Below, piece by piece: positions 18,043-35,655 of a stretch of 64,000 nucleotides of DNA. Positions within the stretch are counted from its first letter, which is position 1. Every line of letters begins with the position of its first letter. Position numbers and translations under genes: made by a program. The stretch is taken from positions 47,182 through 111,181 of IMG/VR virus record IMGVR_UViG_3300021963_004241; one strand, given 5' to 3'. This DNA is from a virus. The notes beneath the pieces were generated by a model. The model worked only from the letters and a program-made list of their open reading frames with translations, searched no databases and was not told the origin of the DNA.

Positions 18043-18266
18043 TATTGTCCCATTCTATCGGGATTGACCATCCAACCTAATTCAGAATTTCTAGTTTGAA
18101 GACGTTCAATTTCATTGGCAGCTTCTTCTAAAAGATCTGATATTCGATCTGGTTTACCTTCTTGAACTGATTTTCGATCTTGATTCTGTCGTCTAATCTC
18201 TGCCCGCTTACGAAGGCGGAAAACTAAACTTTGTTCACTGACCGGTAAATGACTTTCATCTTTCAT
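18042..18266 (-). CDS. Hypothetical protein
   Basis: ATG overlaps the ligase stop. Confidence 0.7.
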   Translation of the reverse strand: MKDESHLPVSEQSLVFRLRKRAEIRRQNQDRKSVQEGKPDRISDLLEEAANEIERLQTRNSELGWMVNPDRMGQ

Positions 18267-19162: not shown

Positions 19163-19349
19163 TTCCTAGTCCAATCCTTGAATAACCAAGTTTACTTCGT
19201 GTTTCTCTGCGAGTCTCTCGTCGCTCGGCGAAACGTTTTACACCAGCCAAATAACCAGCGAGATAACTTTCCCAGTCCAGCTTGTTAGACTCTTTATCGT
19301 AATCACGTCGCACACGTTCAATAAACTCAGGGGTCATTAAACTCTCCAA
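19155..19349 (-). CDS. Hypothetical protein
   Basis: Coupled ORF. Confidence 0.6.
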   Translation of the reverse strand: MESLMTPEFIERVRRDYDKESNKLDWESYLAGYLAGVKRFAERRETRRETRSKLGYSRIGLGNV

Positions 19350-19798
19350 ATTTCCTTAAAGCCTTCTTCTTCAGTTGGCTCTTGCAAGTTAGCGATCATA
19401 GAACGCATGACATTATCTGGAATAGACTTGCCTGGTCGATTAACCAGTCTTCGAGATAATTCTTCCTCATCAGGAGTTCTAAATACGATAGCGATTTTTT
19501 CGTAGTTAGGCAACATTGCCAATTTTGCTTTACGACTTTTTGCGCTAGTATTTGTTTGATCCCAGATGATGTTGAGATTATTTGCCTGTGCAATAGCCAC
19601 GTGATTTTCCATCAACTTGGTTGCGATTTTAATATAGTCGTTAAAAATCTCGTTATAAGTTTTGCCCACACGAGCAGCTTCCTCGTCAACAAAACGATCA
19701 GAACTTACAACTGTGCAATCTTTGACCCAGTCTTGATTAGAGATCCAGGTAGACTTTCCGCTACCTGGAACACCGATTAACATATATAAAGTTGGCAT
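19337..19798 (-). CDS. P-loop kinase (polynucleotide-kinase-like)
   Basis: GVPGSGKST, SSD, DQTN, R...R lid, P..EEGF. Confidence 0.85.
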   Translation of the reverse strand: MPTLYMLIGVPGSGKSTWISNQDWVKDCTVVSSDRFVDEEAARVGKTYNEIFNDYIKIATKLMENHVAIAQANNLNIIWDQTNTSAKSRKAKLAMLPNYEKIAIVFRTPDEEELSRRLVNRPGKSIPDNVMRSMIANLQEPTEEEGFKEIWRV

Positions 19799-20302
19799 TT
19801 AGCCTCCGATGTGTTGACGGGCTTCCGCCATTAAGGCAGGATCACCTTTGGTCATTACTTCTAACAACAATCTCTTTTCTTCTAAGTAGGTCTTAGCAAA
19901 CTTTTCATCGTGTTGCATAATACTACGAGTGTTAGAGATTAAGTCAGCCAACTTGACGGTTTGTGCTTCGGCTGGTGCCATTGCAGTGTGCGCTCTGTCG
20001 ATTGCTTTGCGTGTGGCACGATTGCCTTGTTCCGGACGGGATACGTCCGTAAGCCATCCCACCAACTCACTGACTTCTTCACCGAACTCTGCTCGAATAA
20101 CTTCAATAGTAACTCCTGTGTCTTCAACAACATCATGTAACCAAGCCGCTGCCAACATCTCCTTTGAATGAGATACTTTGCTGACGATTTTTACAACTTC
20201 AGCAGGATGGACGATGTAGGGCTCGTTGGTATACTTGCGTAATTGAGCCGCCGCACCGTGAGCTGCTGTAGCAAATACTCTAGCCTTTTCTACTATGTCC
20301 AT
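19799..20302 (-). CDS. HD-domain small alarmone hydrolase-like (SpoT/Mesh1 family)
   Basis: AHG..LRKY..EPYIVHP, WLHDVVEDT, VKLAD..SN. Confidence 0.85.
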   Translation of the reverse strand: MDIVEKARVFATAAHGAAAQLRKYTNEPYIVHPAEVVKIVSKVSHSKEMLAAAWLHDVVEDTGVTIEVIRAEFGEEVSELVGWLTDVSRPEQGNRATRKAIDRAHTAMAPAEAQTVKLADLISNTRSIMQHDEKFAKTYLEEKRLLLEVMTKGDPALMAEARQHIGG

Positions 20303-20311
20303 AACATCTCC

Positions 20312-20860
20312 TTAAACGTGATGACCTTTGATTTCGCCTTTTAATGCTCTTGAGATAGCATCTTCCATTTCAAGGACGATCCAACCAGTTGAATCCATGC
20401 CTACATCTAATGCACGAAACTTTTCTAATCCACTGGTGTTGCCATGCAAGTGACCGTGGAAGTGAACAGCGCCTCGATGCATTTGATCCCATTCTGCTAT
20501 TGGATAATGGAACATAACACACTTAGTACCATTGTAAGTGATATCTAAGTAATCGTGTATTTCCTCAAAGCAAGAGCGGAATACTGGATCGTTCAACAAT
20601 TTGCGATCGTGATTTCCTTTAACTAATATTTTAACACCATTGCATCGTTTCATGTATTGTACAGCCTTAGCCGATGGCAAAAATGCAACATCGCCTAAGA
20701 TATAAACTTGGTCTTCTGGTTCGACTATTTCGTTCCATTCCTTGACCATTTGTTCGTTCATGTAATCTACATCGTTTTTAAATCTTGCTCTCGTGACAGG
20801 ACAGAACTTCATTATGTTCGTATGTCCGAAATGTAAGTCACTTGTTATATAAGTTTTCAT
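20312..20860 (-). CDS. Calcineurin-like metallophosphoesterase
   Basis: SDLHFGH, LGD, GNHD, HYP, HGHLH. Confidence 0.9.
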   Translation of the reverse strand: MKTYITSDLHFGHTNIMKFCPVTRARFKNDVDYMNEQMVKEWNEIVEPEDQVYILGDVAFLPSAKAVQYMKRCNGVKILVKGNHDRKLLNDPVFRSCFEEIHDYLDITYNGTKCVMFHYPIAEWDQMHRGAVHFHGHLHGNTSGLEKFRALDVGMDSTGWIVLEMEDAISRALKGEIKGHHV

Positions 20861-20869
20861 TTTATTCTA

Positions 20870-21061
20870 TTACCAATTCTCCACACTAGAAACTACAACT
20901 TCAAACCTCCCAGTTTGATCATTGACTTTTGTCTCTATGGTCATAGTCGTATGACTGCCAATACCAGAACTATTATCCTGAGTAATTTCTGCTACCTCTA
21001 CATCTGGAAACTTTTCAAAAATTTCCATCATTCTTTTGATATCATCTCTATGTAAGTACAT
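20870..21061 (-). CDS. Hypothetical protein
   Basis: Coupled ORF. Confidence 0.65.
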   Translation of the reverse strand: MYLHRDDIKRMMEIFEKFPDVEVAEITQDNSSGIGSHTTMTIETKVNDQTGRFEVVVSSVENW

Positions 21062-21624
21062 TAAATATCTCCTTCACGTTCTCTACGAGCTCTACGCTCT
21101 GCGGCCAGTGTAAAAACTTTTTCGTTGTCGTTGGTCCACTCTACTGTTTTAGGAAGAATGATCCCGAACTCGGTTGTATGACCGTTGATAGTATGGGGCT
21201 CATTCTCGTCATAGGTCCAACCTAGGCACTTCATCATTCGATGCTTGACTAACAGGTTAGGTGATCGAAAAGCCTCGGAATCACGAAAGCCTAACATAAC
21301 ACCTACTTCTGCTACGGCACCAGAACGACATACACCTGCGTGGCAATGAACTACTACGTTCATATGTTCCTCGAGTGCGTGTTGCAGTAGTCGAACAAGC
21401 TCGTCGGCTTGTTCTTGACTGCATCGCATGGTCTCGTCTATTACAAGATCTTTAGCTTCAACGTCGAGAAACTTAAATTGATGTGTTTCGCGAAACTGAT
21501 GTTTAGGTTCTGGAAATTCCATGTCTGGATCAACGATCTGTATGAGCATAGAATTAAAACCGGCATCGATGTGAAATCCTTTTTTAATATCGCTCAAAGA
21601 TACGTTTTGGATCCAGGGATTCAT
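21061..21624 (-). CDS. Cys-based (PTP/dual-specificity) phosphatase
   Basis: VHCHAGVCRS = HCxxGxxR motif. Confidence 0.85.
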   Translation of the reverse strand: MNPWIQNVSLSDIKKGFHIDAGFNSMLIQIVDPDMEFPEPKHQFRETHQFKFLDVEAKDLVIDETMRCSQEQADELVRLLQHALEEHMNVVVHCHAGVCRSGAVAEVGVMLGFRDSEAFRSPNLLVKHRMMKCLGWTYDENEPHTINGHTTEFGIILPKTVEWTNDNEKVFTLAAERRARREREGDI

Positions 21625-22053: not shown

Positions 22054-22127
22054 TGGTGCTCCCAACTGGTAACGATCCAGTGTTTCTACATTACCAATGT
22101 AGTGTAATACCTTTATACTATGAGAGC
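22054..22127 (-). tRNA. tRNA-Thr(GGT)
   Basis: Cloverleaf, CTACA-TTGGTAA-TGTAG, encoded CCA; ATCGTTA T loop. Confidence 0.9.
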
Positions 22128-22757
22128 CGAAAATTTTTCTACTAGTTCTCTATGTGGTCGGATTCCAGGATGGCAGTTATCCGGAAAATCTTCAGACCAT
22201 TTCATTTGATCTAAGATAGTTTTGTGATCTTTTAAAAGACGGTTTTTAAACTCTAAACTGTCTGCGGATTTTTCTATGAGGTCCAAATGACAGAGTGTAT
22301 GTACAGTTGGAAATTGTTTGCCAAAAATAGAACTGCGCCAATCAGGAATCACAAAATCTGCAGATGTTATCTCATAGAAACAATCTAATAATTTTGCCTG
22401 TCCACCAATGACTAATGTTTTAGCCGAGGTGAACTTTTTAAGTTTATCAAATTCCTGATAGATTATTCTAGAATTACTTTCTATAACATCATTTATAAGG
22501 AATGATTTATCAGCATCGAAAAGATTCCTATCTCTTAGAGATTCTGTGTGAAACCAAATGATCCAATCTATTTTAGATATTAAATGATTCTTTGCTGAAC
22601 TAATCGATGCTAGATTAGATCCGCCATTGTTAGCACAGTTGTAAACTGTGTACCCTAGATCTTTTAGTAGAAATTCTGTATGGTATTTTGCATCAACTCC
22701 GGGCGGTCCGTAGTAATTTGGGACCCCCCAACTGTCGCCTAATATTAATATGTTCAT
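22113..22757 (-). CDS. SGNH/GDSL-like hydrolase
   Basis: GDSW, GGSN, DNCHP (DxxH). Confidence 0.7.
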   Translation of the reverse strand: MNILILGDSWGVPNYYGPPGVDAKYHTEFLLKDLGYTVYNCANNGGSNLASISSAKNHLISKIDWIIWFHTESLRDRNLFDADKSFLINDVIESNSRIIYQEFDKLKKFTSAKTLVIGGQAKLLDCFYEITSADFVIPDWRSSIFGKQFPTVHTLCHLDLIEKSADSLEFKNRLLKDHKTILDQMKWSEDFPDNCHPGIRPHRELVEKFSALIV

Positions 22758-22768
22758 GTGGATATTTA

Positions 22769-22843
22769 TGGCCTCCCCAGTAGGAATCGAACCTACAACT
22801 AAACCTTAGGAGTGTTTTGTTATATCCATTTAACTATAGGGAG
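22769..22843 (-). tRNA. tRNA-Arg(CCT)
   Basis: Loop CTCCTAA, CCA end. Confidence 0.9.
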
Positions 22844-22847
22844 AATT

Positions 22848-22924
22848 TGGCCTGACTGGAGGGACTCGAACCCCCGACCTACAGCTTAGAAGGCTGTTGC
22901 TCTATCCAGTTGAGCTACAGTCAG
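22848..22924 (-). tRNA. tRNA-Arg(TCT)
   Basis: ACAGC-CTTCTAA-GCTGT. Confidence 0.95.
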
Positions 22925-22929
22925 ATATT

Positions 22930-23003
22930 TGGAGCGGGGTAAGAGAATCGAACTCTCCGCATCAGCTTGGAAGGCTGAGGTATTACCACTATACGAACCC
23001 CGC
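22930..23003 (-). tRNA. tRNA-Gly(TCC)
   Basis: TCAGC-CTTCCAA-GCTGA, TCCA end. Confidence 0.95.
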
Positions 23004-23021
23004 ATAGATATTACTGTAGCA

Positions 23022-23432
23022 TCATCTTGATTTTTCTGCAAGTTCTTTATAACCTGCCCAGCTAGGATGTATTGAATCTTTTTGTAAACGATCTGTTTTA
23101 ATGATAGTATCTCCTCGGCTTCTTGCGATTATGTTAACGATATCATTAACGTTGGGTTTACAGAACTTGTCATTACAAGGCGGCAAGATCCAGAACACTT
23201 TATCTGCTTCTACTCTGGCCCGCATAGCAGACAATTCTTTAAAAGTATGAACACCAGAATGGTCATTAGTTCCGAGACTGATGATAACTGTGCTTGCTGC
23301 TATATTTTTTTCAGCAAACTTTTTATTCCAGCCCCAACTGTTGATCCCGCCAACACTGTAACTAACGCATTCTTTCCTTACGTTAGCTGTTCCTACTGCA
23401 ATACTGTCGCCTACGATTAAACATTCTAACAT
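23022..23432 (-). CDS. Minimal SGNH hydrolase
   Basis: GDSI, LGTND, DSIHP. Confidence 0.8.
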   Translation of the reverse strand: MLECLIVGDSIAVGTANVRKECVSYSVGGINSWGWNKKFAEKNIAASTVIISLGTNDHSGVHTFKELSAMRARVEADKVFWILPPCNDKFCKPNVNDIVNIIARSRGDTIIKTDRLQKDSIHPSWAGYKELAEKSR

Positions 23433-23443
23433 ATATTATCCTT

Positions 23444-23519
<76 letters not shown>

Positions 23520-23568
23520 ATTGAGACACACTACTTATCCTATTATACGCCATGTGTCAGGGCGAAAT

Positions 23569-23645
<77 letters not shown>

Positions 23646-23750
23646 AATAGATTTAGGGCACAACAACTAAAAGTATCTACAATACTAATGTCATCTTTGT
23701 TATTTAAAATGAGCACAATAACGATGCGTCAAGAGTGCTATTCCCTAAAA

Positions 23751-23826
23751 TGGTTGCAGGGGAGGGAATCGAACCCCCGACCTCAAGGTTATGAGCCTTG
23801 CCAGATACCGCTTCTAACACCCTGCG
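23751..23826 (-). tRNA. tRNA-Met(CAT), initiator-like
   Basis: CAAGG-CTCATAA-CCTTG; C1:A72 mismatch. Confidence 0.85.
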
Positions 23827-23830
23827 TCAA

Positions 23831-23974
23831 ACTTTTGTTAATGGTACAGTTTACTACCCTCTTGCTACCTATTGTTGATCTGTTACACAGACCATTTACT
23901 AGTATCATAGGCTTTCCGCTTTGGGCAAGGTTAGCTGTGTACATTAGCCCACGAGCTGTACCATTAACAAAAGT
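23831..23974 (-). ncRNA. Candidate structured RNA closed by a perfect 19-bp inverted repeat
   Basis: ACTTTTGTTAATGGTACAG (23831-23849) / CTGTACCATTAACAAAAGT (23956-23974). Confidence 0.5.
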
Positions 23975-24178
23975 GTCTAGCTACAGTTCCCTGTTCCGCC
24001 CTAGACTGAGTTGTCTACCCTGTCGATCAGTATTTAAATTTTTGTCGCCAGTTCTGCTTCTGCCGCCACGGTGTCTCAAGTCGCCGAAAAGGCCTTGGGG
24101 TCGATTACCGTTTGCACCCTGACGTTTTGGTGAAGTCAATTACCCCCTTTAATAACGAGGAAGGGACCCCGGGGTCTG

Positions 24179-24751
24179 TTAGATTAATCCTTCTAGTTGA
24201 AGAGTTGCAACAACTTCATCGCTGAGAGGGATCTCAGTTTTGATGTTTAACTCAAGAACTTCATCATTCAAAGATTGTTTCTGTTTCTTGAGATCATTTA
24301 ATTGAGCACGGAAACGATCAATGTCTCCTACTCGCAACACACTGGTTTCAACAGTGTCACCGTAGCCATAGATACGACTACGTGCTTCGTCTTTCAAATT
24401 CTTGATCTTCTCAAGTTTGCCTTTGACAACTTCGATGTCAGTGACAGTGTCACGACCAACGATTTCAGTCAGTTGTGCAACACGCTTGTCGATGAAAGCT
24501 GCTTTAGTCAGCTTAAGATCGATTCCGCTTTCGGCATTTGCGGCACACACTAGTCCGCGAATGTTGTAAAGGGCAACCAACAGGTTAGTCCTTCGGAGAT
24601 CATTTTCCAGCATCTTCTGATTGGCTTTTTCAATCTCAGCTTCTGGATTTTGAAATTCGTTGAGAGTTACATTGAACTCTACTTTGATATTTTTAACGGC
24701 ATCGTTGATGCTGTTTTGAATTGCATTTGCTTTACGTAATGTTACTTTCAT
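24179..24751 (-). CDS. Coiled-coil hypothetical protein
   Basis: 190-aa helical ORF, GAGG RBS. Confidence 0.8.
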   Translation of the reverse strand: MKVTLRKANAIQNSINDAVKNIKVEFNVTLNEFQNPEAEIEKANQKMLENDLRRTNLLVALYNIRGLVCAANAESGIDLKLTKAAFIDKRVAQLTEIVGRDTVTDIEVVKGKLEKIKNLKDEARSRIYGYGDTVETSVLRVGDIDRFRAQLNDLKKQKQSLNDEVLELNIKTEIPLSDEVVATLQLEGLI

Positions 24752-25040
24752 TTGTGCCTCTCTATGTTAACGGGTCGGTAAAGGGTCAAGTAATAGACCG
24801 GACAATTGACAAGACCTATTGTGCGATGTCGTCGGTCTGGACAATATGCAATAGACAGGCTACAGAGACCTGAATATTTCCGATTAGCAATTGACAGGTA
24901 TATAAGAATCGGTTCACTCAAGCACGAACAGTTTTCAAGACTGTTTGCCAGGATTAGTTCGTATTCGCTTATGGGCGAAAACGATTGTCTATTCTCTTCT
25001 ACCCTCTACTTCACCGGCTTTGGTATTACTACCTCAGCAA
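24752..25040 (-). ncRNA. Long structured leader RNA with repeated TGTCWATTG motifs
   Basis: Promoter at 25045-25072; ends can pair (GTAGAGGGT/ACCCTTTAC); four motif copies. Confidence 0.5.
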
Positions 25041-25044
25041 AACT

Positions 25045-25072
25045 ATTATAGTTGATTTAAAACTAATGTCAA
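25045..25072 (-). promoter_or_regulatory. sigma70 promoter
   Basis: TTGACA-16-TATAAT. Confidence 0.75.
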
Positions 25073-25099
25073 CCAGTTGTCTTAAATTTTTCTTTATTT

Positions 25100-25175
25100 T
25101 GGCTCCCCGGGGAAGGATCGAACTTCCGACCAATTGATTAACAGTCAACTGCTACTACCGCTGAGCTACCGGGGA
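25100..25175 (-). tRNA. tRNA-Asn(GTT)
   Basis: GTTGA-CTGTTAA-TCAAT. Confidence 0.93.
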
Positions 25176-25182
25176 ATGTGTT

Positions 25183-25256
25183 TGGTGCCCCTACACAGAA
25201 TCGAACTGCAAACTACGGATTACAAAACCGTCGTTATACCATTTAACTATAAGGGC
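25183..25256 (-). tRNA. tRNA-Thr(TGT)
   Basis: Loop TTTGTAA, ACCA end. Confidence 0.9.
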
Positions 25257-25262
25257 GAAACT

Positions 25263-25430
25263 TTACTTACTTCTTGATTCTAATGTCCTGATTCTATTTT
25301 GAATCTTGCTCTTGTCTTTTGGACGAGAGCTCTTTTCTAACATCTCACGTAATTGTACTAGATTAAGTGGTCCTAGTCTAGTCTTTCCTGTTTTTGTTTT
25401 CATTGGATCTGCATGATTTGTTTTTGACAT
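25263..25430 (-). CDS. Small basic protein (55 aa, MSKTNHADPMKTKTGKTRLGPLN...)
   Basis: GAGGA RBS; read by eye. Confidence 0.65.
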   Translation of the reverse strand: MSKTNHADPMKTKTGKTRLGPLNLVQLREMLEKSSRPKDKSKIQNRIRTLESRSK

Positions 25431-25444
25431 ATTATCCTCTTATT

Positions 25445-25520
25445 TGGTGGAGGTAAACGGGATCGAACCGATGACCTTTAGCTTGCAAAGCTACTGCTCT
25501 CCCAGCTGAGCTATACCCCC
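25445..25520 (-). tRNA. tRNA-Ala(TGC)
   Basis: G3:U70, loop TTTGCAA. Confidence 0.95.
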
Positions 25521-25990
25521 ATTGTGTACTTATAAACGTTTTTTTCTACTGGTAACCATTCCGGATTTTCTAAAGGATCAAAATATTTAGAATCGTATTC
25601 TCCAGAATATATAACACAATCATTTTTTACTAACAAATCTTTATTACCAGAAAACTTGGATAGATTTAAGTATCCTAGTTCTCTGTTTCTTACACACATA
25701 TTCCAAGCCATTCCTGCTAAGAATATTCCATCGACGGTATCGTCATCTAGTAAGAATTTAATCTCATCGATAGTAGTGGCGTAAATTTTTTTACCTTTAA
25801 GATTACATACTATAGAAGATGCTTTCTTGTTATCGTATGCAGCTATGACTATAGTGTCGATGTCATTTCTCGATTCAACGAATCTTTTGATATTTCTCAA
25901 CACAGCATAATGCGCTGACAACGGAAAAAGTAAAATATTAATCCAATCTAATTCCCAGGGATCTATAATTATTAAAATCCTCTTTTTCAT
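25511..25990 (-). CDS. Isochorismatase/cysteine-hydrolase-like protein
   Basis: IIIDPW and AGMAWNMCV motifs. Confidence 0.55.
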   Translation of the reverse strand: MKKRILIIIDPWELDWINILLFPLSAHYAVLRNIKRFVESRNDIDTIVIAAYDNKKASSIVCNLKGKKIYATTIDEIKFLLDDDTVDGIFLAGMAWNMCVRNRELGYLNLSKFSGNKDLLVKNDCVIYSGEYDSKYFDPLENPEWLPVEKNVYKYTMGV

Positions 25991-25998
25991 TAGACGAG

Positions 25999-26181
25999 TT
26001 ATTCTTCTGCTTTGTCTTTATTTCGAGATCTCGACGATACTGGTTTAATCAACGCAGCCATCTCGGCTTGTATCATTGCACGTTTCCACTGAGCCTTTTT
26101 GTGAGGATCTTGAAACTTAGACAATGCTAAACTTGTCTTTAGAGGTTTTGACATTCTATAATTAGCGCCTGGTTTTAACAT
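25999..26181 (-). CDS. Small basic hypothetical protein
   Basis: AAGGA RBS before MLKPG; the longer track ORF runs into the tRNA. Confidence 0.65.
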   Translation of the reverse strand: MLKPGANYRMSKPLKTSLALSKFQDPHKKAQWKRAMIQAEMAALIKPVSSRSRNKDKAEE

Positions 26182-26201
26182 ATTTTTCCTTTTTAAAAAT
26201 T

Positions 26202-26296
26202 TGGCGGAGTGTATTGGATTCGAACCAATGATGCAGGTTTTTGCCCACATGCCTTCTTAGCAGGAAGGTGCCTTCGACCAACTCGGCCAACACTCC
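26202..26296 (-). tRNA. tRNA-Ser(GCT)
   Basis: CCTTC-CTGCTAA-GAAGG, long variable arm, GCCA. Confidence 0.93.
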
Positions 26297-26302
26297 AATG
26301 TT

Positions 26303-27907
26303 TCACTTGAGATACTTTCTTTCCCAGGTTTTATAATCTACATCCTGGAATATATTTTCTTTTAACCATTCATAATTATTAGGTAAGTCATCGCTGATTA
26401 AATCGTGCTTTACTTCTCTCGAAGTAAAATAATGACGTCCTAAGTTCAACTGATTTTTAGTTATCGAATCTTTCTTAAATTTAGATAAATCTAATTTCCA
26501 AGAAGCCGCTAACTGCAACCACATATATTCTGCAAATAATGTCCAATGGTCTTTAGCATTGGTTATGGAATTTCTTCCATCGCTATACTTTTGAAAAATC
26601 AAATCTTCGTGACGTTCTTTGTCGCCGATCGATCGCATGTCGTTCCAAAAGTCAGTGTCAGTTCTCTTACTAAGAGTGTAATGTATCTTTATAAAATCTG
26701 TTAGATCGTCAATGGTGTATGCCAGTTTCTTATTGTAATTGGACCAATCTAAGTTTCCAGTTTTTTTATATCCGTCTAAACTGTTGATCAATTCGTATAT
26801 TCCACTGATCAAAATGTATAACGCATTTGCTTCTAATGGTTCGTAGAAACCAGAACACAGTCCTACAGTGGCTACGTTACCATTGGCAAATTGTTCTAAT
26901 CTAGCAGGTTTCCAGGATAGCACTCTGGGTTCTAATCTTCTATTAGAATTTAGTTTTTTGTACTCGTCTATAGCCTGTTCAACATCTAAGTGACTAGAAC
27001 TAAAACAAAGTCCACATCCCATCCTATGATATAAACCGATCTTAAACATCCATCCGTTGGGTTGTGCTATCGATTGTGTGTAATTTACTAACTCTTTTTG
27101 TATGTCGTTATATTCTAATTGTGCAACTACAGCAGTATCGATGGCATAATCTTTGTAGGGAATCACATTCCAGTTTAGTGCTTTGACTAACAGTCTCGCG
27201 AAACCAGAAGCATCAACAAACAAATCAGCTGTAACAACTTCTCCATCTTCTAAAACAACGGATGATATTTTATCCTGTTCACATTTTACTTCTATGACTT
27301 TTTTAGAAATATGTTTCACACCGTTCGGTAATGCAATAAAATCTCTTACATAGTCTCCGCATTTATCTGCGTTGATGTGTTGACTCCAGCTGTAAAACTG
27401 ATTAAGTAGATACTTGTCATTTAAAAACGGAGAAACGTTTTTCTCCATGTAATGATATGCACTACTCCAATACCTATCAAACTTGTCTATGGAACCATCT
27501 AACAACAGTTGAGAAAATACATCTGTTGTTTTAACAGTACTCTCTGGATATTTTAAATCGTTGTAGCTGACTAATTCTGAAGTTTCTCTGTACAGCAACT
27601 CTGCTGCGGAAGGATACGAAAATCCAAAATATTCGGATTCATTTTGATCCCCAGTGATCCATCCAGTGAACTTGTTAGCTAATTTATAAACAGCACCAGT
27701 TTCATTCATCCAGTGCTTTGTGTCAATTTCTAGAAAATCAAAAAATCCTTGTACGTGCGGTGTAACACTTTCTCCTACTCCAATCTTTGGAATATCCGGA
27801 GACTCTATCAAAGTGATATTAAATTGATCATAGACTTTTGAAAGAGCTCCTGCTGTAAACCAGCCAGAAGTGCCGCCACCGACTATAACTATATTTTTTA
27901 TTTTCAT
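26303..27907 (-). CDS. Tryptophan-halogenase-family flavoprotein
   Basis: GGGTSGW, IGVGES, YKLANKF (catalytic Lys position), DASGF, FYEPLEA. Confidence 0.88.
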   Translation of the reverse strand: MKIKNIVIVGGGTSGWFTAGALSKVYDQFNITLIESPDIPKIGVGESVTPHVQGFFDFLEIDTKHWMNETGAVYKLANKFTGWITGDQNESEYFGFSYPSAAELLYRETSELVSYNDLKYPESTVKTTDVFSQLLLDGSIDKFDRYWSSAYHYMEKNVSPFLNDKYLLNQFYSWSQHINADKCGDYVRDFIALPNGVKHISKKVIEVKCEQDKISSVVLEDGEVVTADLFVDASGFARLLVKALNWNVIPYKDYAIDTAVVAQLEYNDIQKELVNYTQSIAQPNGWMFKIGLYHRMGCGLCFSSSHLDVEQAIDEYKKLNSNRRLEPRVLSWKPARLEQFANGNVATVGLCSGFYEPLEANALYILISGIYELINSLDGYKKTGNLDWSNYNKKLAYTIDDLTDFIKIHYTLSKRTDTDFWNDMRSIGDKERHEDLIFQKYSDGRNSITNAKDHWTLFAEYMWLQLAASWKLDLSKFKKDSITKNQLNLGRHYFTSREVKHDLISDDLPNNYEWLKENIFQDVDYKTWERKYLK

Positions 27908-27947
27908 ATTTGTATATATTATAGAAAAATAGTTTTCTATAATAAAT

Positions 27948-28046
27948 TGGTGCCTCCGGCAGGACTCGAACCTGCACACTCAGGCTTATCTGGCCTGTGC
28001 TTTGGCGAGGTATAAGCTCGCTTCTTTACCATTAAGCTACGGAGGC
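27948..28046 (-). tRNA. tRNA with TAT anticodon (Ile) and an abnormally long variable arm
   Basis: GCGAG-CTTATAC-CTCGC; ~29-nt variable region containing CAGGC/GCCTG; ACCA. Confidence 0.8.
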
Positions 28047-28051
28047 ATTTT

Positions 28052-28126
28052 TGGTGCATCGTGAGAGGGTTGAACTCCCGACCTTGGCCTTGTAAGGGCC
28101 CTGCTCTACCACTGAGCTAACGATGC
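28052..28126 (-). tRNA. tRNA-Val(TAC)
   Basis: Loop CTTACAA. Confidence 0.93.
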
Positions 28127-28348
28127 TTATTTCTTTTTCCCTATCTCTTTAGAAACTTTAGTTAGATACTGTTTCATTTCTTTATATGTAGGAAAATGAA
28201 GTTTGTCCCCTTGTATCTCAAGTACCCACATTATTTCGTCTGCGTCATGAGGGCTTTCAACTTGTTCTACTACGAAGTCGACATTAGGCAGTTTCTTTTC
28301 AAAGTCCGCCATGTCTTTGGTAAATTTTGCGAAATTAATCTCTTCCAT
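28127..28348 (-). CDS. Hypothetical protein
   Basis: AAGGA RBS before MEEINF. Confidence 0.65.
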   Translation of the reverse strand: MEEINFAKFTKDMADFEKKLPNVDFVVEQVESPHDADEIMWVLEIQGDKLHFPTYKEMKQYLTKVSKEIGKKK

Positions 28349-28357
28349 GATTATCCT

Positions 28358-28441
28358 TGGTGCCCCAGGAGAGACTCGAACTCTCACGCCTTGCGACATT
28401 GGCTTCTAAGACCAACGTGTCTACCATTCCACCACCGGGGC
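28358..28441 (-). tRNA. tRNA-Leu(TAG)
   Basis: TTGGT-CTTAGAA-GCCAA, variable arm. Confidence 0.95.
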
Positions 28442-28449
28442 ATAAATCT

Positions 28450-28477
28450 ATTATAGCAAATTACTTAGCTGTGTCAA
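28450..28477 (-). promoter_or_regulatory. Internal sigma70 promoter in the tRNA array
   Basis: TTGACA-16-TATAAT. Confidence 0.75.
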
Positions 28478-28646
28478 GTCTCTTTTCTAATTTTTTTAGA
28501 GTATCCTTGCGCATTAAGAATCGTCTTTCCTGACTAGGCCTATGAACGACGAGATATTCAACACCATCTATTACCTGCACATCTCGCGTGTTCTCACAAA
28601 CAAATTTTTCGTGATTAAGAATGTTTTCAAAAGTTACAGGCTTCAT
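28461..28646 (-). CDS. Hypothetical protein
   Basis: AAGGAG RBS. Confidence 0.7.
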   Translation of the reverse strand: MKPVTFENILNHEKFVCENTRDVQVIDGVEYLVVHRPSQERRFLMRKDTLKKLEKRLDTAK

Positions 28647-28657
28647 AATTATCTCCT

Positions 28658-28731
28658 TGGGGTGCCTTGGGGAATCGAACCCTCGCCTGCTGATTCACAG
28701 TCAGCTTTGCTACCACTACACTAAAGACACC
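28658..28731 (-). tRNA. tRNA-His(GTG)
   Basis: G-1:C73, loop CTGTGAA. Confidence 0.9.
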
Positions 28732-28737
28732 ATTGTG

Positions 28738-28811
28738 TGGCGGCGGTACCAGGGCTCGAACCTAGAACGACTGAGTCAAAGTCAGTTGTGTTACCATTAC
28801 ACCATACCGCT
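28738..28811 (-). tRNA. tRNA-Gln(TTG)
   Basis: ACTGA-CTTTGAC-TCAGT. Confidence 0.93.
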
Positions 28812-28816
28812 ATATT

Positions 28817-28892
28817 TGGTGCTGCCTCGTGGGATCGAACCACGTTCCTCGGTTCTTCAGACCGGTGCTATGACCACATCAGCTAAAGCAGC
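28817..28892 (-). tRNA. tRNA-Phe(GAA)
   Basis: Loop CTGAAGA. Confidence 0.92.
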
Positions 28893-28897
28893 AAAAT

Positions 28898-28973
28898 TGG
28901 TGGAGGCACAGGGACTCGAACCCTGAACCTACCGGTTAAAAGCCGGTTGCTCTAGCCATTGAGCTATACCTCC
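28898..28973 (-). tRNA. tRNA-Lys(TTT)
   Basis: ACCGG-CTTTTAA-CCGGT. Confidence 0.95.
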
Positions 28974-28976
28974 GTA

Positions 28977-29068
28977 TAGTCCGTATTAGATTGATTTACT
29001 GTGCCAACCCGGACCACACGGAGTACCGGGCGACACTAAGGTTTACCTACCTTCATGCCATTCTCCTA
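28977..29068 (-). other. Mini-ORF MKVGKP* (29056-29036) followed by a pseudoknotted hairpin
   Basis: AGGAG RBS; GTGTCG-CCCGG/CCGGG-TTGGCAC stem; loop TCCGTG pairs with TACGGA. Confidence 0.5.
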
Positions 29069-29150
29069 TTTTAAATTTTTGTCTATCCAAATTAATCCTA
29101 CTACAACCAAAATAATAACTGCGATCGCCCCATTTTGTTTTCTCCTTTAA

Positions 29151-29232
29151 TGGTACCCCTGCCCGGACTCGAACCGGGAGAAACTAACACTCCTTTTGAG
29201 AGAGCTGCCTTTACCAATTTGGCCACAGGGGC
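29151..29232 (-). tRNA. tRNA-Leu(CAA), short variable arm
   Basis: Loop CTCAAAA. Confidence 0.88.
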
Positions 29233-29235
29233 ATT

Positions 29236-29320
29236 TGGTGCGAGCGGAGGGTCACGATCCCTCAATCCCGAAGGCGGCAGATTTTAAGTCTGCTGTGTAT
29301 ACCAATTCCACCACGCTCGC
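29236..29320 (-). tRNA. tRNA-Leu(TAA)
   Basis: GCAGA-CTTAAAA-TCTGC; ATCGTGA T loop. Confidence 0.93.
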
Positions 29321-29327
29321 ATATTTC

Positions 29328-29403
29328 TGGCACCCCTGGAAGGAATCGAACCTCCTACTCCGATGTTCGTAGCATCGTACTCTGTCCAATGAGTTACAGG
29401 GGT
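29328..29403 (-). tRNA. tRNA-Arg(ACG)
   Basis: CGATG-CTACGAA-CATCG. Confidence 0.93.
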
Positions 29404-29405
29404 AT

Positions 29406-29480
29406 TGGCCGGCCTGGAGAGATTCGAACTCCCGACAGCTGGTTTCGAAGACCAGAACTCTTCCACTGAGCTACAGGCCG
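29406..29480 (-). tRNA. tRNA-Arg(TCG)
   Basis: CTGGT-CTTCGAA-ACCAG. Confidence 0.9.
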
Positions 29481-29483
29481 AAT

Positions 29484-29562
29484 TGGTCTGGATGGTAGGA
29501 TTCGAACCTACAACCTCGATCTTCCAAAGATCGCCGTCTACGCAGATTGACATTACACCCAG
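29484..29562 (-). tRNA. tRNA-Pro(TGG), second copy with atypical D arm
   Basis: CGATC-TTTGGAA-GATCG; D loop lacks GG. Confidence 0.8.
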
Positions 29563-29571
29563 GTTAAAGGA

Positions 29572-29795
29572 TTGTAGCCTAGCGTCCTCAGGTTCATCGC
29601 TAGTGTTTACGCATACAGAGCCGGACTTCCTTATGCGGAGGTTTTCCAGGACATGTTACTTGGGCTACTAAGCCAGGCGCTTCCACTTCAGCTACCGCCC
29701 GGAATGGACGGTGGGGAGTCGAACCCCCTCCTGCTCTACATTGTATTAAGTTTCGAACCTTTTTACAATGTGCTTTTTACTTGCTAACGCTACAA
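29572..29795 (-). ncRNA. ~224-nt RNA containing a circularly permuted tRNA-like domain (YrlA/Y-RNA-like topology)
   Basis: Ends pair (TTGTAGC/GCTACAA); internal order T arm > acceptor hairpin > D arm. Confidence 0.6.
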
Positions 29796-29798
29796 ACT

Positions 29799-29873
29799 TG
29801 GTGCCGCAGGGTGGGAACGATCCACCGACCTACGCCTTATCAAGACGTTGCTCTACCACTGAGCTACTGAGGC
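29799..29873 (-). tRNA. tRNA-Ile(GAT)
   Basis: ACGTC-TTGATAA-GGCGT; ATCGTTC T loop. Confidence 0.9.
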
Positions 29874-29883
29874 AAATTTTATT

Positions 29884-29958
29884 TGGTGGTAACGATAGGA
29901 CTCGAACCTATACCTTGCAGCGTATGAAGCTGTTGCACGACCATTATGCTACGTTACC
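29884..29958 (-). tRNA. tRNA-Met(CAT) elongator (Ile2 not excluded)
   Basis: Loop TTCATAC. Confidence 0.85.
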
Positions 29959-29960
29959 GT

Positions 29961-30035
29961 TGGCGGTCCCAAGGGGTAACGATCCCCTTCTTTCAGCGTG
30001 ACAGGCTGATGTGCGTCCATGAACACTTTGAGACC
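29961..30035 (-). tRNA. tRNA-Asp(GTC)
   Basis: TCAGC-CTGTCAC-GCTGA; ATCGTTA T loop. Confidence 0.88.
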
Positions 30036-30041
30036 TAATGT

Positions 30042-30131
30042 TGGCGGAAGCGGTGAGATTCGAACTCACGGACCATTTCTGATCGTCTGTTTTCAAGACA
30101 GGTGCAATAAACCGGACTCTGCCACACTTCC
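30042..30131 (-). tRNA. tRNA-Ser(TGA)
   Basis: Loop CTTGAAA, long variable arm. Confidence 0.93.
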
Positions 30132-30593
30132 TTCGATTTTAAATTTTGTTAGAATGTCTACACTCCAACGATAAGCATAACTAGTGCCATGCTCATTACT
30201 AAAGAATAATTTTTTACTGTGAGGTAGATCCATGTCTAGGATATAGACATGGTCTGGATCAAACTTAGGATCATTGAATCCTATGTAAACTTTTGTATCG
30301 TGTTTCTTAGCTATGTTTTTATAACTGTTATAGAATCGTTCATCAAAGCCAAAGTATCTTTGACCATACATTTCGTAACAGTTTCTTTTCTTAGCATCTA
30401 TAAAACAGATCTTTTCTGTCTCAGTATTGTAAAGAACATAGTCGGGAAATTGATCTCCGTCCTCGTCTCTATGTACGTCTCGGGTATCATTGACTTCCCA
30501 GTTTGTATTAGCGAAGTATTGGTCCATCCATTTCTCCATCTTGGATTCCCATACTTGGCCTACAGCTAATGATTTTCTAAATTTAATTCCCAT
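30093..30593 (-). CDS. PD-(D/E)xK nuclease-fold protein
   Basis: G..WE, FPDY...FIDAKKR. Confidence 0.65.
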   Translation of the reverse strand: MGIKFRKSLAVGQVWESKMEKWMDQYFANTNWEVNDTRDVHRDEDGDQFPDYVLYNTETEKICFIDAKKRNCYEMYGQRYFGFDERFYNSYKNIAKKHDTKVYIGFNDPKFDPDHVYILDMDLPHSKKLFFSNEHGTSYAYRWSVDILTKFKIEGSVAESGLLHLS

Positions 30594-30598
30594 ACTAC

Positions 30599-30627
30599 AG
30601 TGTATAGTATAAAAATTAGTTTGTCAA
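30599..30627 (-). promoter_or_regulatory. sigma70 promoter (leaderless) for the nuclease-like gene
   Basis: TTGACA-17-TACACT with 5 nt to the ATG. Confidence 0.65.
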
Positions 30628-30705
30628 TGGAGCACCGGGTAGGATTTGAACCTACGGTTTTATGGATTTGCAATCCACTGCATTGGGCCTCTCTGCCACC
30701 GGTGC
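30628..30705 (-). tRNA. tRNA-Cys(GCA)
   Basis: GTGGA-TTGCAAA-TCCAT, TCCA. Confidence 0.92.
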
Positions 30706-30710
30706 ATAAC

Positions 30711-30786
30711 TGGTACACGGTACGGGAATCGAACCCGTCTTTCCGCCTTGAAAGGGCAGCGTCCTCGACCGATAGACGAACCGTGC
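30711..30786 (-). tRNA. tRNA-Glu(TTC)
   Basis: CTGCC-CTTTCAA-GGCGG. Confidence 0.93.
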
Positions 30787-30883
30787 ATAAAAACTGCTAA
30801 GGGACACACAGGGCTGTTGTTTAAGAGTGAGCGGCGACTTTACGTAAAAGTCTCCTCCCGCAACTCTCCCATTAAGACTTTAC

Positions 30884-30958
30884 TGGCGTACCCCCAGGGA
30901 TTCGAACCCCGACTAGCAGTTTTGGAGACTGTCGTGCTGCCGTTGACACTAGGGATAC
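30884..30958 (-). tRNA. tRNA-Trp(CCA)
   Basis: Loop CTCCAAA, GCCA. Confidence 0.92.
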
Positions 30959-30964
30959 ATTCTT

Positions 30965-31049
30965 TGGTGGATGCGGCTGGAGTCGAACCAGCAGTGCCAG
31001 AGGCGGCGGATTTACAGTCCACTGGGGTTACCAATTTTCCTACACATCC
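30965..31049 (-). tRNA. tRNA-Tyr(GTA)
   Basis: Loop CTGTAAA, variable arm. Confidence 0.92.
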
Positions 31050-31140: not shown

Positions 31141-32024
31141 AAAGCTGAGATTACACTTTAACCAGTAACACCTCGAGCATTATACTGCACCTTGCGAGCA
31201 CAGCTTCTCTCGACATCCACATAAGCCCTTGCGGTACCTATGTCTGCTACCAGCATCGCCGTTTTTAAAGACAGGCAGTAGTCTTGTCGTCATACGCTAT
31301 TCTGTATCATCTATCCCGTTGACCTTGCGAGCCATTCAAGTGCGCTAACACTTTACGAAACTTCCAATACAAACTAGTATCACCTTGCGAGCTTTACTAG
31401 GCTTGATTCACTTGCGTGTCAAGCATTAGATGCTTTTCACGTATGACCGAGGCAGTCTTTGCATTTTTGTGTTGATAGTTGGAATCGAACCAACTGCCGT
31501 CTGTTTAACATACAGATGCTCTACCGAATGAGCTATATCGAACCTACCGTGATGAGCTACCTCTGTTGCTCAATAATCTTTTGGACTACTGAATACAACT
31601 CACCACATACCTTTTGTCTTGCGGACTACTCAGTGATGTTTCACGATCGGTGTCCTGCATCAAAACAGTCCACTAACCATTAACATTGCACACGAGCTCT
31701 TGACTGCAACATCTCGAACCAATGCACTACCCTTTCTCATACCTGTTCGCAAGTTGGTTTTGTTAGGAAGTCAGCACCACCTGTTACTTTTCATACGCCC
31801 AGGTTCCTTACGGCCTGTCGACGCACATTCTTTCCCTAACACTTGCTTCACAGTTACATCCACCGGTCTTATCAGTGAACGCTACCTCGCGGTAGTGAGC
31901 AGGCTTGTTTACGTGAACCATTGCTGGCGCTAGTATGTAGGCATTCTAGCTTTGGCTGTGTCACCACAGTTATTCTTCGTAACGCTGGGCGAACCATACG
32001 CTACAGGACAATAAACTGCCCTAA
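31141..32024 (-). ncRNA. Giant structured ncRNA, GOLLD-like
   Basis: ~880 nt without a credible ORF, more GC-rich than the flanks, six C-GCAA-G plus other GNRA hairpins, own promoter, located in a phage tRNA array. Confidence 0.7.
31470..31543 (-). tRNA. tRNA-Asn(GTT)-like element embedded in the giant RNA (no CCA, bulged acceptor)
   Basis: GCTC-ATTCGGTA-GAGC, TCTGT-ATGTTAA-ACAGA, GTTGG-TTCGATT-CCAAC. Confidence 0.65.
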
Positions 32025-32030: not shown

Positions 32031-32058
32031 ATTATATACAAGTTATTTTACTTGTCAA
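32031..32058 (-). promoter_or_regulatory. sigma70 promoter for the giant RNA
   Basis: TTGACA-16-TATAAT. Confidence 0.8.
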
Positions 32059-32306
32059 TACTTTTTGGTTAAACACTCTTCCCTATGGTTTTAGACAGCG
32101 TCAGGGGCTGAATGAAGAGTGTGTATTAAAGTGCTCTATGTACGCTATGCGCCGCCTTGTTCAGAGGTCGATAGAACACTTTAATACGCTACCATTTTAC
32201 GCATCTAGGTTGTCGCCCTAGACTTACCATCCGGTAGGCCGCCCACATTAGTAGCAAGATTTTTATAGTGCCCTGCAGGGTCGCGTTCCCTATCACACTT
32301 CGCGTT

Positions 32307-32465: not shown

Positions 32466-32479
32466 CTGTTCCTTTCGGC

Positions 32480-32514: not shown

Positions 32515-32537
32515 TTTTGAAGTTTGTGTAGTTTTGT

Positions 32538-32720: not shown

Positions 32721-32811
32721 ACTATAACAACTGTTAAGAAGCTTGTCAACCTATTTTGGCATTCTTCCTAACCATTGCAAAAATTATAATGTAACTTTAT
32801 TTAGTTGTCAA
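32721..32811 (-). promoter_or_regulatory. Tandem sigma70 promoters heading the tRNA array
   Basis: TTGACA-17-TATAAT (32811-32783) and TTGACA-17-TATAGT (32749-32721). Confidence 0.85.
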
Positions 32812-35652: not shown

Positions 35653-35655
35653 TGT

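What the first reader, a model, noticed from the sequence alone, without database searches (positions are those of the whole stretch)
31141..32024. ~880-nt GOLLD-like giant RNA carrying an embedded tRNA-like element
Seen: an ORF-free, GC-richer tract with its own TTGACA-16-TATAAT promoter, six C-GCAA-G hairpins (three as GCTCGCAAGGT) and other GNRA loops. A full cloverleaf (GTT anticodon, bulged acceptor, no CCA) sits in the middle at 31470-31543. Known: GOLLD RNAs are ~800-nt ornate RNAs found near tRNA genes in phages, with unknown function. Inference: a GOLLD-family or new giant RNA displaying a tRNA mimic, possibly as a decoy or processing site.
Basis: partly seen in the sequence, partly recalled or inferred. 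Interest (0 to 1): 0.8.

Follow-up and report, generated by a model that had tools for sequence, protein, structure and literature searches.

The report
Phage GOLLD RNA with tethered tRNA mimic
This gene-free stretch of a large uncultivated phage encodes a full-length member of the known GOLLD family of giant cage-forming RNAs, and the tRNA-shaped piece in its middle looks like a permanently attached tRNA look-alike and not a working tRNA, so the find is real but ordinary.

Summary
On the minus strand, 32024..31141, there is an ~884-nt non-coding RNA gene behind a perfect TTGACA-16-TATAAT promoter. It carries six C-GCAA-G loops and a tRNA-Asn(GUU)-shaped cloverleaf at 31543..31470.

Its 3' half matches Rfam GOLLD (RF02032) over the whole model: 225.6 bits against a cut-off of 150. 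More than 100 IMG/VR phage contigs hold full-length relatives. In 65 of them, 220 predicted pairs are 98% canonical and 143-160 show compensatory changes, 67 of these in the 5' domain that Rfam does not model.

GOLLD RNAs in phage tRNA arrays, some with a tRNA in the inner linker, are published. This scan has already reported the same thing in at least 42 other genomes. So this is a new member of a known kind.

The comparison adds that the linker module is a lineage of its own:
- None of 76 unique modules encodes CCA, against 98% of 1066 free tRNAs in the same contigs.
- Acceptor positions 1-3 pair at about chance level.
- None of 31 GUU modules has the G73 found in 38 of 38 CCA-bearing free tRNA-Asn genes.
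- The anticodon switches repeatedly among NNU types.

The phage also has a canonical tRNA-Asn and an Rnl1-type RNA repair module. The module is most likely a retained tRNA mimic inside the cage. Its function is still inferred.

The parts
32031..32058 (-). Sigma-70-type promoter: -35 TTGACA (32058-32053), 16-nt spacer, -10 TATAAT (32036-32031). Predicted start near 32024.
   Evidence: One search gives 12 of 12 matches. Homology to relatives begins at query position 1-4 of a query that starts at 32024.
31141..32024 (-). Full-length GOLLD RNA gene, ~884 nt. The 3' end is taken from the end of the Rfam model. A short conserved ACACUAUUCUA tail may extend it a few nt.
31607..32024 (-). 5' domain, ~418 nt, not covered by the Rfam model. 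It is homologous and structured in relatives.
   Evidence: nhmmer hits of 150-346 bits to ~95 IMG/VR loci. 97 consensus pairs, 67 with compensatory changes, 98% canonical.
31142..31606 (-). Conserved GOLLD 3' region as modelled by Rfam RF02032 (model positions 1-416), with the tRNA-shaped insert in its unpaired linker.
   Evidence: 225.6 bits against a gathering score of 150, E 1e-62. 82 pairs in the part 3' of the insert, 53 with compensatory changes.
31470..31543 (-). tRNA-Asn(GUU)-shaped module in the linker. D, anticodon and T arms are intact. The acceptor has a bulged C or two mismatches, the discriminator is A73 and no CCA follows.
   Evidence: Subfamily comparison.
31556..31563 (-). 5' strand (GAGGUAGC) of a covarying helix that brackets the tRNA slot.
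   Evidence: Consensus fold of A1. Variants visible: GAGGCAGC/GACUGCCUC, GAGUCAGC/GACUGACUC, GAGACAGC/GUCUGUCUC, GUGUCAGC/GACUGACAC.
31449..31457 (-). 3' strand (G-CUGCCUC) of the bracket helix, just after the A-rich trailer of the module.
31191..31623 (-). Span holding the six C-GCAA-G tetraloop hairpins (31191, 31228, 31324, 31384, 31411, 31618).
   Evidence: Their stems covary in A1.
22054..31049 (-). Context: array of 29 canonical tRNA genes directly downstream on the same strand, starting with tRNA-Tyr 92 nt after the GOLLD 3' end. No terminator-like site lies between them.
25100..25175 (-). Context: canonical free-standing tRNA-Asn(GTT) with a 7/7 acceptor, G73 and encoded CCA. It makes the embedded module redundant for decoding.
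   Evidence: It is 55% identical to the embedded module.
18263..21624 (-). Context: RNA healing and sealing module downstream of the tRNA array. It comprises a DSP/CX5R phosphatase, a metallophosphoesterase, an HD_4 hydrolase, an AAA_33 kinase and an Rnl1-like RNA ligase.
   Evidence: Pfam hits.

Best explanation
This is the gene for a GOLLD RNA of a large uncultivated phage, probably one that infects a proteobacterium. The RNA is ~884 nt, runs 32024..31141 on the minus strand, and is transcribed from its own sigma-70 promoter at the head of the phage's tRNA array.

By homology with the solved GOLLD RNAs (env-38, a 14-mer; Streptococcus agalactiae, a 12-mer), it should fold into a 5' domain and a conserved 3' domain. 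These should self-assemble into a closed RNA-only cage whose inner linker points into the cavity.

In this subfamily the linker carries a tRNA-shaped module, here with a GUU anticodon. The module keeps its elbow and anticodon arm under selection but has lost what a chargeable tRNA needs: a paired acceptor top, the G73 discriminator and a CCA end. It therefore most likely stays covalently attached and is displayed, one copy per chain, as a tRNA mimic inside the cage.

Shown here: family membership, conserved structure, and the non-canonical, separately inherited nature of the module.

Inferred: cage assembly (from solved relatives), retention of the module, and its purpose. My favoured purpose is that the module engages a factor that reads the anticodon arm of tRNAs for ANN codons, for example a host anticodon nuclease or a modification enzyme. 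That would make it part of the phage's tRNA-protection toolkit, alongside the tRNA array and the Rnl1-type repair genes.
For: Family membership:
- RF02032 scores 225.6 bits against a cut-off of 150 over model positions 1-416.
- Full-length relatives occur in more than 100 IMG/VR contigs.
- 220 consensus pairs are 98% canonical. 160 show at least one double-sided change. 143 do under a stricter count, 67 of them in the 5' domain.
- The module lies at nt ~482-555 of ~884. In env-38 the disordered inward-facing linker is nt 497-538 of 833 (PMC12286853).

The module is not a normal tRNA:
- 0 of 76 unique modules encode CCA and 5 of 76 have a 7/7 acceptor.
- Of 1066 unique free tRNAs in the same contigs, 1043 encode CCA and 869 have a 7/7 acceptor.
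- Acceptor positions 1-3 pair in 37-51% of modules (chance is 37.5%). Positions 4-7 pair in 85-90%.
- The D, anticodon and T arms covary: 11 of 13 pairs.
- 0 of 31 embedded GUU modules have G73, against 38 of 38 CCA-bearing free tRNA-Asn genes.

Own lineage and redundancy:
- All 52 ARAGORN-called unique modules have another embedded module as nearest neighbour (median 90% identity, against 60% to any free tRNA).
- 20 loci, including this window, also hold a free tRNA with the same anticodon that is only 40-58% identical.

Anticodon arm:
- U33, U36, A37 and A38 are nearly fixed, while position 34 changed about 25 times and position 35 about 12 times on the backbone tree.

Other support:
- A covarying helix brackets the slot.
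- In a mycobacterial GOLLD, Northern blots found no separate product from the internal pseudo-tRNA (PMC6582537).
- An Rnl1-type repair module lies downstream.
- PARIS AriB cuts exactly tRNA-Lys(UUU), Thr(UGU) and Asn(GUU) (PMC12409363).
Against: - No expression or end-mapping data exist for this RNA.
- Cage formation is extrapolated from two solved relatives that lack a tRNA insert.
- An unencoded CCA does not by itself exclude maturation, because hosts have CCA-adding enzymes.
- The bracket helix could hold the two halves together after excision, so release of the module is not excluded.
- The conserved C32-U33-NNU36-A37-A38 loop is also what a genuine ANN-decoding tRNA would keep, so it does not separate decoy from decoder.
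- The module's anticodon stem reads U36-A-A-A-C-A and not the AriB site U36-A-A-U-C|A, so a direct link to PARIS is not shown.
- Counts come from related sequences and are not independent events.
Confidence: 0.6

Rival explanations
1. The embedded element is a genuine tRNA precursor, and GOLLD stores or times it. RNase P and a 3' nuclease would cut it out, the host CCA-adding enzyme would finish it, and it would then decode AAY codons. The two GOLLD halves would stay together through the bracket helix.
For: The cloverleaf scores 56.1 bits with the Rfam tRNA model, mid-range for this phage's tRNAs. The arms and the T-loop TTCRAxx are conserved. A covarying helix flanks the slot and could hold nicked halves together. 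Published reviews propose 'inhibited storage' of linker tRNAs (PMC12990946).
Against: No module encodes CCA, whereas 98% of free tRNAs in these phages do. The top three acceptor pairs are at chance level. G73 is absent from all 31 GUU modules but present in all 38 CCA-bearing free tRNA-Asn genes. A canonical isoacceptor is present in the same array. Anticodon identity flips repeatedly on nearly identical bodies. No separate product was seen for the mycobacterial case.
Confidence: 0.25
2. The module is a decaying relic of a tRNA gene that was once captured in a tolerant, variable linker. It has no function of its own.
For: The linker is the least conserved part of GOLLD and is A/U-rich filler in the Rfam consensus. 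Some relatives lack an insert (L091; Xanthomonas phage BUDD). One clade has a degraded D loop and T arm.
Against: The module is present at the same slot in nearly all of ~100 subfamily loci. 11 of 13 arm pairs show compensatory changes. U33, U36, A37 and A38 are nearly invariant, and identity among modules is high. This pattern is purifying selection, not decay.
Confidence: 0.1
3. The tract is not a GOLLD RNA. It would instead be a different or new giant RNA, or a non-functional spacer with chance hairpins.
For: The Rfam model covers only the 3' half, so the 5' 418 nt have no curated family model.
Against: The model matches over its full length at 75 bits above threshold. The 5' half is homologous and covaries in about 95 relatives that carry the same 3' domain. 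No ROOL or other large-RNA family hit appears even at E up to 1.
Confidence: 0.02

Closest known systems
GOLLD RNA (Rfam RF02032; Weinberg et al. 2009). Solved cages: env-38, a 14-mer, and Streptococcus agalactiae, a 12-mer (PMC12286853, PMC12990946).
   Same: Full-length match to the family model. Total size ~880 nt, with a ~420-nt 5' domain and a conserved 3' domain. Many GNRA loops. The variable linker sits at the same relative position. Encoded by a phage next to tRNA genes.
   Different: The solved examples have a disordered linker without a tRNA. Here, and in this IMG/VR subfamily, the linker is a structured tRNA-shaped module. This copy has its own consensus promoter, whereas many relatives start directly after an upstream tRNA.
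Mycobacterial GOLLD inside horizontally transferred tRNA arrays, with a pseudo-tRNA or tRNA-Phe in J13/15 (PMC6582537; Morgado 2020 as cited in PMC12990946).
   Same: GOLLD embedded in a ~30-tRNA array. A tRNA-like insert in the same linker. The insert was judged a pseudo-tRNA, and no separate product was seen on Northern blots.
   Different: A different host group and a different anticodon class. Here the insert belongs to a large lineage whose anticodons are restricted to NNU (Asn, Lys, Arg-UCU, Thr, Ile).
ROOL RNA (a phage-encoded cage-forming RNA found near tRNA islands).
   Same: Same genomic setting, large size, and a cage with an inward-facing variable linker.
   Different: Unrelated sequence and fold. 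No ROOL hit here even at E up to 1.
Phage tRNAs that counter tRNA-cleaving defences, such as the T5 tRNA-Lys, Thr and Asn variants that resist PARIS AriB (PMC11464382, PMC12409363), and T4 Pnk/Rnl1 repair of PrrC damage.
   Same: The same tRNA species are involved (Asn GUU, Lys UUU, Thr UGU). This phage also carries a large tRNA array and an Rnl1-type repair module.
   Different: Those are free, chargeable replacement tRNAs. The module here is tethered and looks unchargeable, so it could act only as a decoy or binding site. This resemblance concerns how it may work, not membership, and it is untested.

Membership tests
GOLLD RNA (RF02032) | Covariance-model score above the curated gathering score over the whole model | tested here: met
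   225.6 bits against 150, model positions 1-416 of 416, E 1e-62
GOLLD RNA (RF02032) | Conserved 3'-domain secondary structure kept by compensatory changes | tested here: met
   82 consensus pairs, 53 with compensatory changes, 98% canonical in 65 sequences
GOLLD RNA (RF02032) | A structured but less conserved 5' domain of ~400 nt | tested here: met
   418 nt. Homologous in about 95 loci. 97 pairs, 67 with compensatory changes. There is no curated model of the 5' domain to score against.
GOLLD RNA (RF02032) | A variable linker after the first helix of the 3' region, which can hold a tRNA | tested here: met
   The tRNA-shaped insert lies in the unpaired model stretch ~62-150. This is the same relative position as env-38 nt 497-538.
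GOLLD RNA (RF02032) | Phage or prophage location next to tRNA genes | tested here: met
   IMG/VR viral contig. 29 tRNAs lie directly downstream.
GOLLD RNA (RF02032) | Self-assembly into a closed 12- to 14-mer RNA cage | not testable with these tools
   Known only from cryo-EM of env-38 and S. agalactiae GOLLD.
GOLLD RNA (RF02032) | Expressed as a discrete large RNA during phage growth | not tested
Only the consensus promoter supports transcription.
Functional elongator tRNA-Asn | Cloverleaf with D, anticodon and T arms and a GUU anticodon | tested here: met
   Rfam tRNA 56.1 bits. ARAGORN calls Asn GTT. Arms paired 4/5/5.
Functional elongator tRNA-Asn | Seven-pair acceptor stem | tested here: not met
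   Two mismatches in the standard register, or a bulged C. Across 68 modules, positions 1-3 pair in 37-51%, against 82% 7/7 stems in 1066 free tRNAs.
Functional elongator tRNA-Asn | Encoded 3' CCA, as in the other tRNAs of these phages | tested here: not met
   The sequence after A73 is CAAAAAUGCAAAG. 0 of 76 modules encode CCA, against 1043 of 1066 free tRNAs.
Functional elongator tRNA-Asn | G73 discriminator. That this is an AsnRS identity element in E. coli is my own knowledge. | tested here: not met
   A73 here. 0 of 31 embedded GUU modules have G73, against 38 of 38 CCA-bearing free tRNA-Asn genes.
Functional elongator tRNA-Asn | Released as a ~75-nt RNA and aminoacylated | not tested
   No RNA data were available.
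ROOL RNA | Match to the Rfam ROOL model | tested here: not met
   No hit at gathering threshold or at E up to 1.
YrlA / Y RNA-like | Score above the gathering score | tested here: not met
   21.4 bits against 69 over the tRNA-like part only.

The most novel reading that the evidence does not exclude
The linker module would be a fast-evolving anticodon-arm decoy. One tethered, unchargeable tRNA look-alike per chain, 12-14 per cage, would bind or absorb a host factor specific for ANN-reading tRNAs. Candidates are an anticodon nuclease of the PrrC or PARIS type, or the t6A or wobble-modification enzymes. Repeated switching at anticodon positions 34 and 35 would track the specificity of that factor. 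This would give GOLLD its first assigned function and tie it to the tRNA-centred arms race between phages and bacteria.
Probability: 0.2. Interest if true: 0.8.

Novelty: new member of a known kind. Interest (0 to 1): 0.35.

Why it matters
GOLLD is one of the largest structured bacterial and phage RNAs, and it still has no known function. This copy adds nothing new in kind.

The subfamily it belongs to offers a handle on the open question. It has more than 100 phage contigs, each with a conserved but unchargeable tRNA-shaped module at the point that faces the cage interior. The module's anticodons are restricted to those of ANN-reading tRNAs, and the genes sit beside tRNA arrays and RNA-repair genes.

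If the module is retained, the cage would display tRNA anticodon arms rather than enclose free cargo. That can be tested directly with an in vitro transcript.

Tried and rejected
- Close relatives among cultured phages: megablast of the flanking 12 kb found nothing. blastn of the RNA found only short pieces in Xanthomonas phages BUDD and X1 and in Serratia phage tRNA-Asn genes.
- Xanthomonas phage BUDD has an unannotated GOLLD but no tRNA insert, so it cannot serve as a model for the module.
- The genome-contig scan with the 3'-end motif gave almost only chance matches. One of 120 loci was a true subfamily member.
- My first pattern for viral contigs had too few specified bases.
- Morgado 2020 (PMC7549688) is not held, so its claims are cited only through PMC12990946 and PMC6582537.
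- Direct PARIS link: the AriB site U36AAUC|A is not present in this module, which reads U36AAACA. I kept this only as a lead.
- My first slot-extraction regex caught the T loop and was replaced.
- Four modules with a degenerate T arm were mis-registered by my parser and inflate the apparent variation at positions 36-38.
- RNAalifold predicts no acceptor stem in the consensus. It cannot show the pseudoknot between the Rfam outer helix and the bracket helix. Both are supported by covariation seen.

Full report
**What is there**

The window is part of a 111-kb IMG/VR viral contig that CheckV rates about 31% complete, so it is a fragment of a large phage.

Between 32058 and 31141 on the minus strand the sequence shows the following:
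- A perfect TTGACA-16-TATAAT promoter.
- No ORF longer than 41 aa on that strand.
- GC of 44-46% against mostly 33-42% nearby.
- Six CGCAAG motifs on the minus strand where about 0.1 is expected.
- A tRNA-Asn(GTT) cloverleaf called by both ARAGORN and the Rfam tRNA model.

**Family**

cmscan against Rfam 15 places 31606..31142 (minus) in GOLLD, RF02032. The score is 225.6 bits against a gathering score of 150, E is 1e-62, and all 416 model positions are matched. The tRNA lies in the model's long unpaired stretch. A permissive scan adds nothing else of weight. ROOL gives no hit, and YrlA scores 21 bits against a cut-off of 69.

The Rfam model covers only the conserved 3' region, so I looked for relatives of the 5' 418 nt. 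Two motif scans of IMG/VR, followed by nhmmer, gave 106 loci with the 3' domain. About 95 of them also match the 5' domain, and the homology starts at query position 1-4. That corresponds to 32024-32021, just downstream of the -10 box.

I aligned 65 non-redundant full-length sequences that are 50-83% identical to the window (alignment A1). RNAalifold gives 220 consensus pairs, 160 of them with at least one double-sided change, and a covariation term of -52.7 kcal/mol.

I then applied a stricter count, requiring two canonical pair types that differ on both sides, each in at least 2 sequences:

| Region | Pairs | With compensatory change |
|---|---|---|
| 5' domain | 97 | 67 |
| 3' domain | 82 | 53 |
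| tRNA arms | 13 | 11 |

Overall, 98% of cells are canonical. Membership in GOLLD, as a full-length two-domain RNA, is secure.

**What is already known**

GOLLD RNAs are phage and prophage RNAs of more than 800 nt that lie in or beside tRNA arrays.
- Some carry a tRNA in the linker (Weinberg 2009, as cited in PMC6582537).
- Cryo-EM shows closed homo-oligomeric cages: a 14-mer for env-38 and a 12-mer for S. agalactiae.
- The disordered linker (env-38 nt 497-538 of 833) faces the interior.
- The authors themselves draw cages 'exposing the covalently linked tRNAs'.

In this RNA the module occupies nt ~482-555 of ~884, the same relative place. This scan has already reported GOLLD RNAs with linker tRNAs 46 times, in at least 42 other genomes. 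The find is thus a new member of a known kind.

**What the comparison adds about the embedded tRNA**

Nearly every member of the subfamily has a tRNA-shaped insert of 75-84 nt at the same slot. It lies between a conserved GUAGGUU and a conserved A-rich AAANGCAAAG.

*Arms and acceptor.* The D, anticodon and T arms are almost always fully paired. Only 5 of 76 unique modules have seven acceptor pairs, and none is followed by CCA. As a control I took 1066 unique free-standing tRNAs from the same contigs: 869 have 7/7 acceptor pairs and 1043 encode CCA. Position by position, acceptor pairs 1-3 form in 37%, 50% and 51% of modules, where chance with G-U allowed is 37.5%. Pairs 4-7 form in 85-90%.

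*Discriminator.* All 38 CCA-bearing free tRNA-Asn(GTT) genes have G73, but none of the 31 embedded GUU modules does (U 21, A 8, C 2). That G73 is an AsnRS identity element is my own knowledge.

*Lineage.* All 52 ARAGORN-called unique modules have another embedded module as nearest neighbour. Median identity is 90%, against 60% to any free tRNA. In 20 loci a free tRNA with the same anticodon sits in the same stretch and is only 40-58% identical. In this window that gene is the canonical tRNA-Asn at 25100-25175, with a 7/7 acceptor, G73 and CCA.

*Anticodon.* Among confidently parsed unique modules the anticodons are GUU 32, UUU 14, CUU 5, UCU 5, UGU 2, and AUU, GAU and UAU 1 each. Only three distant relatives carry UUG, CUA or UGG. 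On the backbone tree, position 34 changes about 25 times and position 35 about 12 times. U33, U36, A37 and A38 are nearly fixed once four mis-registered parses are set aside. Near-identical bodies carry UUU, UCU, CUU or GUU.

*Bracket helix.* A covarying helix brackets the slot: GAGGYAGC at 31563-31556 pairs with G-CUGRCCUC at 31457-31449. It forms a pseudoknot with the Rfam outer helix.

**Reading**

The module is under purifying selection as an L-shaped RNA with an anticodon arm. It is not maintained as a chargeable tRNA, and it is inherited with the GOLLD backbone rather than exchanged with the tRNA array. The simplest account is a retained tRNA mimic displayed inside the cage. A mycobacterial GOLLD gave no separate product from its internal pseudo-tRNA on Northern blots, which agrees with this.

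Release is not excluded. Hosts can add CCA, and the bracket helix could hold nicked halves together.

**Setting**

No terminator-like site lies between the GOLLD 3' end and tRNA-Tyr 92 nt downstream. GOLLD probably heads a long transcript through 29 tRNAs.

Beyond the array lie five genes: a CX5R/DSP phosphatase, a metallophosphoesterase, an HD_4 hydrolase, an AAA_33 kinase and an Rnl1-like ligase. Together they form an RNA healing and sealing set like T4 Pnk/Rnl1. The ligase is closest (38-45% identity) to those of Variovorax, Acidovorax and Ralstonia phages. Together with the sigma-70 promoters, this suggests a proteobacterial host.

**Function**

What the mimic does is inferred. The anticodon set (Asn GUU, Lys UUU/CUU, Thr UGU, Arg UCU, Ile) is that of tRNAs for ANN codons. 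It includes the three species cut by the PARIS nuclease AriB (PMC12409363) and the PrrC target tRNA-Lys.

A decoy or binding site for such a factor fits three things: the setting, the repeated switching at positions 34 and 35, and the loss of the acceptor end. But the same loop is what a real ANN decoder would keep, and this module lacks the AriB cleavage motif. I give the decoy idea about 20%, retention as a mimic about 65%, and family membership about 97%.

**Verdict**

The object is a known family with a known kind of insert, so interest is modest. The subfamily statistics are the useful by-product.

Noticed in passing
window 32060-32890 (minus strand): An ORF-poor stretch upstream of the GOLLD promoter holds two more perfect or near-perfect sigma-70 promoters (32811..32783 and 32749..32721). 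The only ORFs are 47 and 52 codons long. Another first-stage note reads this as a leader peptide with an attenuator. No Rfam family matches it.
   Followed up: no
window 18263-21624 (minus strand): Five adjacent genes lie downstream of the tRNA array: a DSP/CX5R phosphatase, Metallophos_2, HD_4, an AAA_33 kinase and an Rnl1-like RNA ligase. This looks like an RNA healing and sealing (tRNA repair) module.
   Followed up: partly
window 26303-27979 (minus strand): A 558-aa tryptophan-halogenase-family flavoenzyme gene (Pfam E 8e-89) sits in the middle of the tRNA array.
   Followed up: no
window 32894-49242: Several radical SAM genes lie divergent from and upstream of the GOLLD gene (32894-33868, 41477-42886, 47875-49242, among others).
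   Followed up: no
L046 about 6490-6563 (+), IMGVR_UViG_3300012036_000005: A more distant GOLLD relative carries a linker module with a CUA (amber-reading) anticodon. Others carry UGG (L110), UUG (L027) or UCU (L020).
   Followed up: partly
L124, L142, L152, L156, L177, L215, L219, L220, L229 (slot just 5' of the AAANGCAAAG motif): In one clade of the subfamily the module has lost the D-loop GG and the canonical T arm (for example GUGACUUCAAAAUCAC), yet it keeps a perfect anticodon arm with CUGUUAA. The anticodon arm is the most strongly kept part.
   Followed up: partly
L358 1416-1843 (+), Xanthomonas phage BUDD ON758385.1: This cultured 199-kb phage has a GOLLD RNA (181.9 bits) inside its tRNA array that the GenBank record does not annotate. 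It has a short linker and no tRNA insert.
   Followed up: partly
G001:C204:6576-7035 and G001:C224:2070-2511: One bacterial or metagenome-assembled genome from the GTDB set holds two GOLLD copies (229 and 170 bits). The first belongs to this subfamily and also carries an embedded Asn(GUU) module.
   Followed up: no
L123, L130, L136, L137, L144, L153, L160, L199 and others: In many relatives a canonical tRNA ends 10-20 nt before the GOLLD 5' end, where this window has a dedicated promoter. In those phages the 5' end is probably made by tRNA processing.
   Followed up: no
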